From assembly GCA_963812015.1 (NCBI GenBank), contig CAWETI010000003.1, forward strand, positions 832,001 through 896,000: a stretch of DNA of 64,000 nt, read 5' to 3'. The position numbers and the translations under genes are program-made. Below, piece by piece: positions 5,916 to 60,100 of this stretch (its first letter is position 1; every line of letters begins with the position of its first letter). The notes under the pieces are model-generated. The model had not been told where the DNA came from, did not search any database, and was given only the letters and a program-made list of their open reading frames with translations. The stretch is from an uncultured delta proteobacterium (GTDB lineage Bacteria; Desulfobacterota; Desulfobaccia; Desulfobaccales; 0-14-0-80-60-11).

Positions 5916-6016
5916 TGGCAAGTTATGCGGCGGTCCCACCTTCATGGGGAATCACGCATAGGAGACTTGTTTGGATTCTCATCGGACCCGCTCCATCTTG
6001 ACTTTGCCCATAGGAG
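5916..6016 (+). repeat. Orphan IS1111-type right end (bridge-RNA-like module), copy A
   Basis: GGTCCCACC...GGGGAATCACGCATAGGAG...GGATTCT...CTTGACTTTGCCCATAGGAG, similar to 55900-56173. Confidence 0.7.
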
Positions 6017-7830: not shown

Positions 7831-7946
7831 TGGCAAGTTATTTAACGGTCCCAACTTGGCTGGGTAACCACGAATATGAAATTGGCTTGGATTCTCAATG
7901 AAAACGGATACTGGACCTCTTTTCAACTTGACTTTGCACATAGGAG
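7831..7946 (+). repeat. Orphan IS1111-type right end, copy B
   Basis: TGGCAAGTT...GGTCCCA...AACCACGAATA...GGATTCT...CTTGACTTTGCACATAGGAG. Confidence 0.7.
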
Positions 7947-51684: not shown

Positions 51685-51845
51685 CTTGACTTTGCACAAA
51701 GGAGATAGTGCGCATGGACCTCCCTCCTAAACCCCCGATTACTCACTCACGTTCCCACCCGAACTGGAAACTACGAATAGGAAACGGACTAGAATTATAG
51801 CCAAATACCGATACACCTGAACAATCTTGACTTTGCACATAAAAG
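51685..51845 (+). repeat. Tandem orphan IS1111-type right ends (stub + full module)
   Basis: CTTGACTTTGCACAAAGGAG ... CCCCGATTACT...CCCACC...ACGAATAGG...CTTGACTTTGCACATAAAAG. Confidence 0.7.
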
Positions 51846-53480: not shown

Positions 53481-54859
53481 TGGTTTGGTCTACAATTCCC
53501 TTGGACACCGATTTGGGTAAAATAAGCTCATCCCAGGAGGTGTCGCAATGGATCAGAATAATGGTTCGCAGCCAGGACCATCGGCCGGAGCCCGTAGGGC
53601 GACCGGAGATGGCCCTGGCCAGAGGGAACAAAAACGTTTTTCCACCCGGCGTAAAGTTGAAATCGTCTTGCGGTTGCTGCGAGGTGAAGATCTGGAACTA
53701 CTTTCCCGGGAACTGGGCGTGACCGCGGCCAGACTCTCCCTTTGGCGAGAGCAATTCCTGACCGCCGGACGGACAGTGCTGAAGAAACCTCCCCAGGACG
53801 CCCGAGACCCGGAGATCGCCCGGCTGCAACAAAAGCTGGGCGAAGTCACCATGGATAACGAGTTCCTCCAGAAGAAGATTGAGCACCTGGAGGACGGCCG
53901 CCCTTTACCGCGGCGGAGGTTGAGGAGATGAGCCGGACCACCTCGCCCTCCACGCAGAAACCTTATTCCCTGGTCCGGGTTTGTCGGGTCTGGCGCCTGG
54001 GACGCTCCACCGTGTACTGGCAGCGCCTCCCAAAGACGCAGGCCGCCACCCGCCCAGGACCGCGGGGACCCTGTGCCGATGATGACTTGGCGCAGCATAT
54101 CAGAACCATCCTGGCCGGCTCCCCCTTCCATGGCGAAGGATACCGCAAGGTATGGGCCAGACAGCGCTATGCCGGCCTCAGGACCTCGAAAAGACGGGTT
54201 TTGCGTCTGATGCGAGAGTGCCAGCTCCTGGCTCCCCACCGTCGGGGATGCTCCCCCGGACCCCGGGTCCATGACGGCACCATCACCACCACCCGGGTCA
54301 ATGACATGTGGGGCACCGATATGACCTCTACCTTTACTGCTGAAGAAGGCCAGGCGGCAATCTTCTTCGCAGTAGATCATTGCTCCATGGAATGCACCGG
54401 CATCCACGCGGCCAAGCGCGGGACCCGCTTCGAGGCCCTGGAACCCCTCAGGCAAGGGGTCAAAGAATACTTCGGCCACTTCGCACCCAACGCCGCCCAG
54501 GGCCTGACCCTGCGGCATGACCACGGCAGCCAGTATCTATCCCATGACTTTCAGACGGAAATCGCTTTCCTGGGCATCGAAAGCTCACCGGCATTTGTCA
54601 GGGCTCCCGAAGGCAACGGTTGCGCCGAACGCTTTGTCCGCCTCCCCAAGGAAAACCTGCTCTGGGTGAGGACTTTCGCCACCGTGGAGGAACTGCGCCT
54701 GGCCCTCCTGGACTTTAAGCGGACCTACAACGAAAACTGGATCATCCAGCGCCATGGCTACAAAACCCCGGCCCAGGTGCGCCGGGGACAATCTCAGGTG
54801 TTGCCCCTGGCCGCCTGATTTAACCCTTTACTGTGTCCAATAAATTGTGGACCGTTACA
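53481..54859 (+). mobile_element. IS3-family element (orfA 53548-53931, orfB 53928-54818), TSD TCAC
   Basis: WGTDMT, HDHGSQY, GNGCAERF; TG...CA imperfect IRs; TCAC at 53477 and 54860. Confidence 0.9.
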
Positions 54860-55025
54860 TCACAAGCAATTTTTTTCAACCTGATGGCCCCTGCCTTTCC
54901 CGCCAGTATCCCGATCTTCTTCTATCTTCGCTGCCTAAAATCATCCTCCCCACAAGGGCCACTGTAGGATATGGAGGTCATATCCGCAGCTTTTGCTTAT
55001 TTTTTGATAAGTGAAGGGTTTGGCA

Positions 55026-56173
55026 AGTAACTATGATGCAAAGGAAGGCCCTGTCTGCCCTATCGCTTGGTGGCATGCTGGGATCCAGGCCGGTCTAACC
55101 AATCAAGGAGGAGACTGAGAATGAGACGCCCCAAGCATCAGGTTACAAGCGAAGCGGATTTATTTGTCGGAATCGACCTGCATAAAAACAGGTGGCACGT
55201 AACCATTCGGACGGTGGACCTGGAGTTGTTCAGCGCCACCATTCCAGGGACCTGGGAATCTTTGCACCGAGTTTTAGCTCGCCCGGCCATTCCCACCAAG
55301 CGGTCTATGAAGCCGGATAGTTTGGATTCCGGCTTCATGACCGGCTGGTGGATCATTGCATCCCCTGCCTGGTTACTCCTACGAGTCTGGTTCCCAAGGA
55401 GTACGGCAACCGGGTCAAGACCGATCGGCGGGACAGCAGTAAACTGGCGCATCTTTTGGCCAAAGGGATGCTGAAGCGGGTGTGGGGGCCCAGTGAAGGG
55501 GAACGTTATCACCGCCAGGTCATCCGCGCCGCCGGCAGTTAGTCAGGGATCTTACGTGGGCATAACCCCATCCCAATACTCCAGTGCGGATAAGGGGCGC
55601 ATGGGCCGCATCACCGGCATCGGCAAGAATACCCTGAGGGCCATCGTGGTAGAAGCCTCATGGAAACTGATCACCAAGGATCAGGTGATGCGCGAGAAAT
55701 ACGACAGGATCAAAATCCGTTCAGGAGGAAAGCGCGCCATTGTGGCCATTGCCCGCACCCTACTACTACGCATGATAAGAATGTTACTGGATAAACAGGC
55801 ATATGCGCTACAGCTGGCACCTTAGAAAACATGAGAATCTAAAACCGGTTTAGGGTATGGCGAGCTGATTGCTGTGTGTGCTTATAGCCTGCAACCACGT
55901 TGGCAAGTTTGTCAGCCCTATTTGAATACCCCGGATTACTTACTTGCGGTCCCACCTGAAGGGGAACCACGAATAAGAGACTGGCTTGGATTCTAACCGG
56001 ATACCGCAACACCTTTGGAACTTGACTTTGCACATAGGAGTATGTCAGCCTTGTTGAATACCCCGGATTACTTACTTGGGGTCCCACCTAAGCGGGGAAC
56101 CACGAATAGGAGACTGGTTTGGATTCTAAAAGAACACCGGGGCACCTTGCCTGCTTGACTTTGCACATAGGAG
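55026..56173 (+). mobile_element. IS110/IS1111-group element with decayed transposase (55121-55825) and doubled right end
   Basis: FVGIDLHK, KTDRRDS, GITPSQYSS; sub-terminal IRs CTATG(A)TGCAAAG / CTTTGCACATAG; AG core at ends. Confidence 0.85.
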
Positions 56174-56281
56174 TTATCCGCTATTCTTACTTCTCCTCTC
56201 CTTCTGCCCTGACCAGTCCTAATTAATTGGCGACCCCGCTCTATCAAAGTGGGACTTCCGAAATCTTAACTAAACGAATAT

Positions 56282-56338
56282 TAGGGATTCCGAAGGTCAA
56301 ATATAGGGAATTAACCAAATGTTATTAGGGAAACCCTA
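56282..56338 (+). promoter_or_regulatory. Three TAGGGA sites at 22-bp spacing, last one palindromic
   Basis: TAGGGA at 56282, 56304, 56326 (TAGGGAAACCCTA). Confidence 0.5.
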
Positions 56339-58948: not shown

Positions 58949-60100
58949 TTAAATTGCCAGTGGCCTTACCTGGGCTCCTTCCGGGACCACCCCGTACTCC
59001 AGAAAACGCCACAGATCGATGAGCAGCCGCCGGGCCAGGGCCACGATGCCGATGCGTCGCATGCGGCTCCCGCCAGCGGCAAACCTTTCCAGGAACCACC
59101 GGCTTAACTTGCTTCGGGGTTGAAACCGCAGCCAGGCCCAGGCGATCTCAATGGCCAGGGTGCGCACCCTCCGGTTACCCGCTTTACTGATCCCTTGTTC
59201 TCGCAACCTCTTGCCGCTGTCGTAAGGGGTAGAGGTCAGGCCCGCCAGGGCGGCCACTTCCCGGCGGTTCCGAAAACGGCGCCAGCCGAAAAACTCCATG
59301 ACGAAGGTCCAGGAACTTACCGGGCCGATCCCGGGCAGCCTCAGGAGCTGGGCCACTTGCGCCATCCTGGCGTTCTCTACTTTAAGAAGCTGCGTTTTCT
59401 CTTTTGCCAGGCCGCTGATCTGCTCCTCCACCATGCGTAGCCGTTCATGCACCCGTACCAGCCGCACCTTCATCTCGGCTGGCAATTCCCGGCCTTCCCA
59501 GGTGCGCATGAGTTCCAACTCCTTGACAAACTTTTTCGTGCTCGGGTTGCTGACACGCAGCCCTTGTTGAATCAAAATCCCATGGATCCGGTTGCGGTGC
59601 CGGGTCCGCTCGCTCTTCAAGGCCTCCAATTCCCGGTGTAAATGCCTGGCGTCCTCATCCTCCCGGCTCGGCACCCGCACCACCCGCCACAGGTGCTTCT
59701 CCCCGCCGTGATAGCGGAGCAGCATGCTCAATAGTTTCCCCGCATCGACCCGGTCGGTTTTCGCCCTCCGCAACCGCCGGTTCACTTCCAGGCTGGCAGA
59801 GTCCACCACCACATTGTCTATCCCGCAGCTGTGCAAATACCGGTGCAGCCAAAAACCGTCACGTCCGGCCTCATAACAGCTCACCGTGTGCACCTTGTCC
59901 CCCATACCGAAATGCCGCTTGGCTCCGATAATCGCTCTTTGGACTTGGGCCAGGTCCCCAGCAGTCACGGTGAGATGCCGCAACTTGCTGCCATCGGTGC
60001 ACGCCATCTTCCAGGTGCTGTTAGCCAGTTCGAAGGCGACGTACAAAACCGGCACCTGGGCGCTCTGTTCTCGACCCTGGTTTCCCTGCTTGTGGTCCAT
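58949..60100 (-). CDS. IS110-family transposase/recombinase
   Basis: AFELA, CYEAG, KTDRVDA (E-E-D-D variant of DEDD), LPGIGP, PYDSG, ISKAGN. Confidence 0.93.
   Translation of the reverse strand: MDHKQGNQGREQSAQVPVLYVAFELANSTWKMACTDGSKLRHLTVTAGDLAQVQRAIIGAKRHFGMGDKVHTVSCYEAGRDGFWLHRYLHSCGIDNVVVDSASLEVNRRLRRAKTDRVDAGKLLSMLLRYHGGEKHLWRVVRVPSREDEDARHLHRELEALKSERTRHRNRIHGILIQQGLRVSNPSTKKFVKELELMRTWEGRELPAEMKVRLVRVHERLRMVEEQISGLAKEKTQLLKVENARMAQVAQLLRLPGIGPVSSWTFVMEFFGWRRFRNRREVAALAGLTSTPYDSGKRLREQGISKAGNRRVRTLAIEIAWAWLRFQPRSKLSRWFLERFAAGGSRMRRIGIVALARRLLIDLWRFLEYGVVPEGAQVRPLAI

What the first reader, a model, noticed from the sequence alone, without database searches (positions are those of the whole stretch)
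55020..56180. IS1111 element whose guide predicts its target and which appears to have inserted into its own guide
Seen: flanks rebuild the target TTGGCA-AG-TTATCCG. The right end contains TTGGCAAG (55900-55907, 8/8 to the left flank) and, 24 nt later, CGGATTACT (rc AGTAATCCG, 8/9 to the right flank). The end is doubled: after the first terminus (AG, 56040) the second module resumes at TATGTCAGCC, exactly where the first module continues after its TTGGCAAG. Established: bridge RNAs carry left and right target guides around a hairpin. Inference: because the guide DNA is a half-target, an incoming copy inserted at the guide's AG core and later collapse left stacked ends. This is a route to tandem guide-RNA arrays and to inactivation of a resident guide.
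Basis: partly seen in the sequence, partly recalled or inferred. Interest (0 to 1): 0.75.

Follow-up and report, generated by a model that had tools for sequence, protein, structure and literature searches.

The report
Jumping gene recombined at own guide
A decayed RNA-guided jumping gene carries a second, partial right end from a different relative, joined exactly at the letters that encode its targeting guide, which suggests such elements can mistake their own guide gene for an insertion site.

Summary
The sequence features are real. This is a decayed IS1111 (broken transposase) inserted at the AG end of a multi-copy intergenic repeat. One guide was misread. CGGATTACT is nearly invariant in the family and does not track right flanks (45 of 105 matches, chance 45.7). 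The right-flank guide lies upstream, at 55865-55873 (84 of 105, chance 51.9), the published IS1111 order. So the second module has no target loop, only a donor loop and end; it is not a guide array. The core inference gains support. Module 2 starts exactly after the guide's AG. It is 96% like relative L046, as are the left end and 5' transposase (93%), while module 1 is 95% like L038. This A-B-A pattern fits recombinase exchange at the guide DNA plus homologous recombination in the transposase; the order of steps is unresolved. It is a single event: no second case in 83 genomes and no intermediate found. Tandem non-coding ends and half-match recombination are published for IS110; use of the guide gene as a site was not found in my searches. 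The scan noted readable IS1111 guides before in other genomes, but my look-ups showed no guide-core stack.

The parts
54880..55027 (+). Remnant of the multi-copy intergenic repeat whose right end (TGGCAAG) is the target; an IS3-type element lies directly to its left
   Evidence: 48 nhmmer hits in the genome; bounded 217-219 or 99-101 bp units in many copies; paralogous empty site C3:1008037; rve and HTH_Tnp_1 ORFs at 53548-54818
55026..55120 (+). Left end: core AG, 7-bp extension AGTAACT, subterminal inverted repeat 55033-55043
   Evidence: the 7 bp/3 bp extension rule is from PMC11187229
55121..55825 (+). IS110-family transposase pseudogene (two frameshifts, 349-nt deletion); 5' part closest to lineage L046
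   Evidence: PF02371 in 55493-55822; intact 352-aa homolog at C2:800151 with PF01548 and PF02371; lesions; ancestry
55850..55921 (+). Predicted target-binding loop of the bridge/seek RNA
   Evidence: RNAalifold consensus of 14 copies; pair counts
55865..55873 (+).
   Evidence: 84 of 105 matches to right flanks in 15 relatives, permuted mean 51.9; position
55900..55907 (+). Left-flank target guide TTGGCAAG; as DNA it is a half-target identical to the left junction
   Evidence: invariant column block in 14 copies
55924..55993 (+).
   Evidence: guide assignment is inference from match to the donor junction
56026..56040 (+). First right terminus: inverted repeat, AGG extension, core AG
56041..56173 (+). 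Module 2: everything 3' of the guide's AG from a second lineage (donor loop plus terminus; no target guides)
   Evidence: 96.2% to L046, 83.6% to module 1; first base in register
56174..56180 (+). Right flank TTATCCG (right half of the outer target)

Best explanation
An IS1111 of lineage A inserted at the repeat end TTGGCA-AG-TTATCCG. A second copy, lineage B, became joined to it by two steps. (1) A recombinase-made exchange at the AG core, between B's donor end (CATAGG-AG) and the DNA that encodes A's left-flank guide (TTGGCA-AG), which is a perfect half-target. (2) Homologous recombination between the two transposase genes. The other order is integration of a B circle by homology, then a donor-by-guide deletion inside the dimer. 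A's target loop was cut off, so module 2 is a donor-loop remnant. Shown: anatomy, guide map, two ancestries, core-exact junction. Inferred: that the recombinase made the junction, and the order.
For: The junction is core to core: GCACATAGGAG followed by the first base after the guide's AG. Module 2 is 96.2% like L046 and 83.6% like module 1; module 1 is 94.8% like L038 and 85.1% like L046. Left end to 55700 is 0.93 to L046 and 0.84 to L038. Informative sites switch from 71:7 to 7:23 near 55735-55744; max chi-square 49.5, 0 of 5000 permutations, the largest among 8 elements tested. Module 1's upstream guide predicts CAATCAG and mismatches the outer flank at positions 1 and 2, which match in 13 and 15 of 15 relatives, so B probably did not choose the outer site. 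A single half-site is enough for IS621 insertion in vitro (bioRxiv 2026.08.31.748434, section 8).
Against: One case only: 1 of 110 termini and 1 real match in 83 genomes. No uncollapsed intermediate: 0 in genome contigs, 2 chance hits in metagenomes, 0 of 22 left junctions. The family is mosaic in general (max chi-square 18-28 for most other members). The C2 copy L019 is 0.92 like the window over 55231-55700 and 0.90 like module 1, so the crossover could lie as early as about 55230 and B's true parent is not sampled. Module 1's guide may simply have decayed. Half-match data come from IS621, not an IS1111. No listed contig bridged 56040/56041.
Confidence: 0.6

Rival explanations
1. A partial circle excised from an A-lineage copy, between its guide AG (which mimics the left junction) and its right end, then inserted at the right junction of a resident B element by a left-donor half-match. 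This also uses the guide DNA as a site, but for excision.
For: Partial circles that reuse a terminus, and tandem non-coding units with left-donor-only boundaries (n=468), are reported for IS110 (bioRxiv 2026.08.14.744561, sections 8-9). MITEPpu9 stacks behind ISPpu9 at AG (PMC12288879, Discussion). Guide DNA TTGGCAAG-TA equals the left junction TTGGCAAG-TA in TA-type copies.
Against: No free module of this type at a host site among 110 termini. It does not explain why the left end and 5' transposase share module 2's lineage or why module 1's guide fits the outer flank poorly.
Confidence: 0.22
2. A tandem dimer formed by homology and was then shortened by ordinary microhomology deletion at the shared AGTA, with no recombinase at the junction.
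For: Donor junction and TA-type guide share AGTA across the core. The locus has suffered another deletion, of 349 nt.
Against: Both breakpoints would have to fall on recombination cores by chance in about 1.3 kb of possible positions (my reasoning, not simulated).
Confidence: 0.07
3. In-place tandem duplication of 133 bp followed by decay, or an assembly artefact.
For: 133-bp period. No listed contig bridges the junction.
Against: The modules are only 83.6% alike and each is about 95-96% like a different element in another genome. Run X1 contigs match 56100-56283 and 54850-55485 with 0 differences (X1 may be the source sample).
Confidence: 0.04

Closest known systems
IS1111-family elements with seekRNA (ISEc11, ISPa11, ISKpn4; Siddiquee et al. 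2024, PMC11187229; abstract and passages seen)
   Same: DEDD transposase, subterminal inverted repeats with 7 bp and 3 bp extensions, downstream non-coding region, top-strand guide placed 5' of the bottom-strand guide, natural reprogramming.
   Different: This copy is a pseudogene, is chimeric, and has a second partial end joined at the guide core. Its RNA is predicted, not sequenced.
Bridge RNA of IS621 (Durrant et al. 2024, PMC11208160, passages; Nature 2026, PMC13626964, passages)
   Same: Two internal loops, one for target and one for donor, each with two guides around a hairpin; 2-bp core (AG here, CT on the other strand).
   Different: RNA lies in the right end and reads its sites in the opposite orientation to the transposase.
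ISPpu9 and MITEPpu9/ssr9 (PMC12288879; abstract and Discussion part 1)
   Same: A second module stacked behind the element at an AG core, free copies of modules elsewhere, insertion into a genomic repeat.
   Different: MITEPpu9 has its own copies of both ends. Module 2 has no left end, starts inside the guide, and no free copy of it was found.
Expanded IS110 loci and half-match recombination (bioRxiv 10.64898/2026.08.14.744561, abstract, sections 8-9, passages; bioRxiv 10.64898/2026.08.31.748434, abstract, sections 8-9)
   Same: Tandem non-coding units next to the transposase, left-donor-only boundaries, no target immunity, one-sided matches sufficient.
   Different: The sections I read do not identify the guide-encoding DNA as the other partner. 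Their supplements were not seen and may show such boundaries.

Membership tests
IS1111 family | DEDD (PF01548) plus PF02371 transposase | tested here: met
   PF02371 in the window remnant; both domains in the intact C2 homolog, 86-87% identical in DNA over the aligned pieces
IS1111 family | Subterminal inverted repeats with 7 bp left and 3 bp right extensions | tested here: met
   AGTAACT then ATGATGCAAAG; CTTTGCACAT then AGG (rule); repeat is imperfect by one gap
IS1111 family | Long non-coding region downstream of the transposase | tested here: met
   215 bp, 55826-56040, against a 95-bp left end
IS1111 family | Specific target, no target-site duplication beyond the core | tested here: met
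   Empty paralog C3:1008037; TGGCA left flank in all 4 distinct full elements not selected by that motif
IS1111 family | Circular intermediate with junction promoter; mobility | not testable with these tools
   No experiment; this copy's transposase is broken
Bridge/seek RNA | Target guides covary with flanks, top-strand guide first | tested here: met
   Upstream guide 84 of 105 against 51.9 permuted; one copy per guide 65 of 84 against 41.7; 0 of 100000 permutations each. The left-flank guide is invariant, so it could not be tested for covariation. Kin are not independent.
Bridge/seek RNA | Two-loop secondary structure | tested here: inconclusive
   Consensus fold has both loops; 97% of cells paired but only 2 of 35 pairs change on both sides; the single-sequence fold has z=0.27
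Bridge/seek RNA | Donor guides match the circle junction | tested here: inconclusive
   TTACTTACT 7/9 to AG-TAACTAT; AATAGGAG 7/8 to CATAGGAG; donor is invariant, so no covariation test
Bridge/seek RNA | Expressed RNA bound by the transposase | not testable with these tools
   Only contigs of relatives in one RNA run
Tandem guide-RNA array | Repeated units each carrying a target guide | tested here: not met
   Module 2 lacks both target guides
MITE of the MITEPpu9 kind | Both ends present and free copies elsewhere | tested here: not met
   No left inverted repeat in module 2; 0 free copies among 110 termini

The most novel reading that the evidence does not exclude
The DNA that encodes a bridge RNA is itself a recombination substrate, because every guide is a half-site with a core. 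IS1111 elements would then knock out or swap parts of their own and each other's guide genes. This locus would be a fossil of self-targeting at the target loop. A second IS1111 family in relatives has a guide variant that fits the donor loop of this family, and 4 of its 30 left junctions examined lie exactly there.
Probability: 0.35. Interest if true: 0.7.

Novelty: new variant of a known kind. Interest (0 to 1): 0.45.

Why it matters
If the recombinase can use its own guide-encoding DNA as a half-target, bridge systems have a built-in self-damage pathway. That matters for how these elements die, how chimeric guide RNAs and extra ends arise, and for editing constructs that carry the guide gene on DNA beside the donor. 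It is cheap to test with an intact homolog. The family is also a clean natural reprogramming series: one guide fixed on a repeat end, the other tracking 12 variants of the flank. Against high interest: guides predicting targets, stacked non-coding units and half-match recombination are all published, and this is one decayed locus.

Tried and rejected
CGGATTACT as right-target guide: rejected (p=0.87 by permutation). Against 45 repeat ends in this genome it matches mostly 3-4 of 7, and 6 of 7 once. Search for the uncollapsed intermediate (guide followed by left end): 0 in genome contigs; 2 hits in metagenome contigs, both without an inverted repeat or transposase. Search for the same junction in the order: 9 of 83 genomes matched at up to 1 mismatch, only the window is real. 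Right terminus in viral contigs: 0. Distant homologs for a left-guide covariation test: 2 of 401 genomes at E<=1e-60, one being G000; too strict to be useful. Rfam: 3 weak hits far below gathering scores. Single-strand fold of module 1 alone was no better than shuffles. Reads: only contigs; no listed piece bridged 56040/56041, and 133 pieces were not shown; small-share runs are no evidence of habitat or expression. The full recombinase-bearing form of the target repeat was not found in this genome or my loci. My first classification of mini-modules over-called one class and was redone. Literature searches for self-targeting: plus 0 occurrences of 'self-target' in PMC11208160 and 0 of 'self' in PMC13626964; listings only for most papers.

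Full report
Observation. The element runs from the AG at 55026-55027 to a first terminus at 56040, and a 133-bp second module ends at 56173. The transposase (55121-55825) is a pseudogene: it lacks 4 nt after 55281, 1 nt after 55526 and 349 nt after 55550 relative to seven relatives. An intact 352-aa homolog with both IS110 domains lies at C2:800151. The ends fit the IS1111 rule of subterminal inverted repeats with 7 bp and 3 bp extensions (PMC11187229, passages).

Target. The left flank is a multi-copy intergenic repeat ending in TGGCAAG, with 48 profile hits in this genome. A paralog at C3:1008037 has both of the window's flanks side by side, so the empty site is real. Many copies are bounded units of 217-219 or about 100 bp. 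Earlier scan notes call what appears by position to be the same repeat a mini form of an Xer-like recombinase transposon; I did not find the full form. Targeting a repeat or another element's end is usual for this family (ISPpu9 and REP; IS4321 and Tn21 ends, reference title only).

Guide map, corrected. I gathered related loci from 83 genomes of the order and from named records and found 110 distinct right termini. Fifteen relatives have an intact guide region and a readable right flank; I left out the window itself and L041, whose end is interrupted. A 7-mer upstream of TTGGCAAG, at 55865-55871 and followed by CT, matches 84 of 105 (permuted mean 51.9, 0 of 100000). With one copy per distinct guide it is 65 of 84 against 41.7. 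For example, four copies with CGTACAG sit before CTGTATG, CTGTAGA, CTGTACG and CTGTACG. Kin are not independent, so the p-values overstate, but the contrast is plain. This is the published IS1111 order, top-strand guide first. The consensus fold of 14 copies places the upstream guide and TTGGCAAG in one internal loop and a second loop downstream; compensatory change is scarce, 2 of 35 pairs. In the second loop TTACTTACT matches the donor AG-TAACTAT at 7 of 9 and AATAGGAG matches CATAGGAG at 7 of 8. Its 8/9 match to this flank has p about 0.05 in a shuffled end.

The stacked end. Module 2 begins at the first base after the guide's AG, in register with L046 from its first letter. It therefore holds no target guide, only the donor loop and terminus. 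It is not a recent duplicate: it is 83.6% like module 1, 96.2% like L046, while module 1 is 94.8% like L038. In a tree of this segment module 2 groups with L046, L043 and L137 (bootstrap 81). The window's left end and transposase up to 55700 are also closest to L046 (0.93, against 0.84 for L038). Sites that tell L046 from L038 switch from 71:7 to 7:23 near 55735-55744 (max chi-square 49.5, 0 of 5000 permutations). This is the strongest signal among the 8 elements tested; the next, 39.9, has the window as a parent, and the others reach 18-28, so the family is mosaic in general. The C2 copy is nearly as close over 55231-55700 (0.92 against 0.93), so the crossover is not well placed. Module 1's upstream guide predicts CAATCAG, which mismatches the outer flank at the two positions next to the core that match in 13 and 15 of 15 relatives; this suggests, weakly, that lineage A chose the outer site.

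Mechanism. The same product follows if a B circle first integrates by homology and the recombinase then deletes from the donor junction to the guide site; the sequence cannot tell these apart, and I give them 0.6 together. A partial circle cut out at the guide and re-inserted at B's right junction gets 0.22. About 0.8 in all goes to the recombinase using guide DNA as a site. Plain microhomology deletion (0.07) and duplication or artefact (0.04) fit poorly. Support from print is indirect: one half-site suffices for IS621 in vitro, and tandem non-coding units with left-donor boundaries are common in expanded IS110 loci.

Generality. It is rare. Of 110 termini, 16 follow an intact guide, 1 is the window's module 2, 36 long-type and 26 short-type mini-modules follow a host TGGCAAG (one long-type call, L058, is short by length, and one short-type call, L074, was mislabelled as following a guide), 5 are very short, 2 long-type modules follow another terminus, and 24 are unclassified. 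Complete stacks number 3: the window's, L141, and L160, which also lies in this window. Only the window's starts at the native guide continuation. The exact junction occurs once in 83 genomes, and no uncollapsed intermediate was found. These exact-pattern scans would miss variants. Contigs of run X1, possibly the source sample, match 54850-55485, 55457-55681 and 56100-56283 without a difference, but no listed piece bridges 56040/56041.

Comparison and verdict. The element is an IS1111 member by every sequence feature tested. Guide-predicted targets, stacked modules (ISPpu9) and half-match recombination are known. I did not find the guide-encoding DNA named as a recombination partner in three library searches or in the sections read; most listed papers I saw only as listings, and bioRxiv supplements were closed. 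Verdict: new variant of a known kind, interest 0.45. It is one well-documented fossil with a directly testable prediction, not a guide array.

Noticed in passing
window 51685-51845 (L160): A second stacked end in this window: a short terminus remnant ending at 51704, followed at once by a 141-bp long-type module with a decayed terminus at 51845.
   Followed up: partly
window 5923-6016 and 7838-7946; also G000 C3:448511-448615 and C3:804357-804494: Gene-less right-end modules sitting directly after TGGCAAG. Across relatives two fixed types recur, about 104 bp and about 141 bp. Their first four bases (ATAT, TTAT, CTAG, ATAG) look like right flanks, so the left junction resembles a regenerated target, which may allow stacking. 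Their origin is unexplained.
   Followed up: partly
L134, L135, L169, L178 (same sites as L187, L193): A second IS1111 family (left end AG-ACATAATGG) is inserted at the AG inside the donor-loop guide (CACGAAT-AG-GAGAC) of this family in 4 of 30 left junctions examined, in two genomes. Its predicted guides, read by eye, vary with its flanks in three copies. The target is short, so part of this may be chance.
   Followed up: partly
window 54880-55027 and 47 other profile hits in G000: The target repeat is a 217-219 or about 100 bp unit with loosely inverted ends and NTAT/NTAG flanks on both sides, consistent with a miniature mobile element.
   Followed up: partly
window 53500-54860: IS3-type element (HTH_Tnp_1 and rve ORFs) directly left of the target repeat, whose left part is missing here.
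   Followed up: no
window 58949-60100, minus strand: A separate, apparently intact IS110-family transposase of 383 aa (PF01548, PF02371); it gave no blastn or tblastn hit to the studied element.
   Followed up: no
L083; G000 C3:121130-121195: L083 is a classical internal-deletion derivative (left end fused to the donor loop). C3:121130 is a lone left end of about 66 bp.
   Followed up: no
L033, L049, L112: The right-flank sequence CTGTACGTAATA, matched by the CGTACAG guide variant, looks like the end of an element carrying two tyrosine recombinase genes that also sits after TGGCAAG.
   Followed up: no
window 55932-55940: The invariant CGGATTA resembles the commonest right flank (NTATCCG) at its distal five bases, so the donor loop might also recognise the right junction during excision. 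Speculation only.
   Followed up: no
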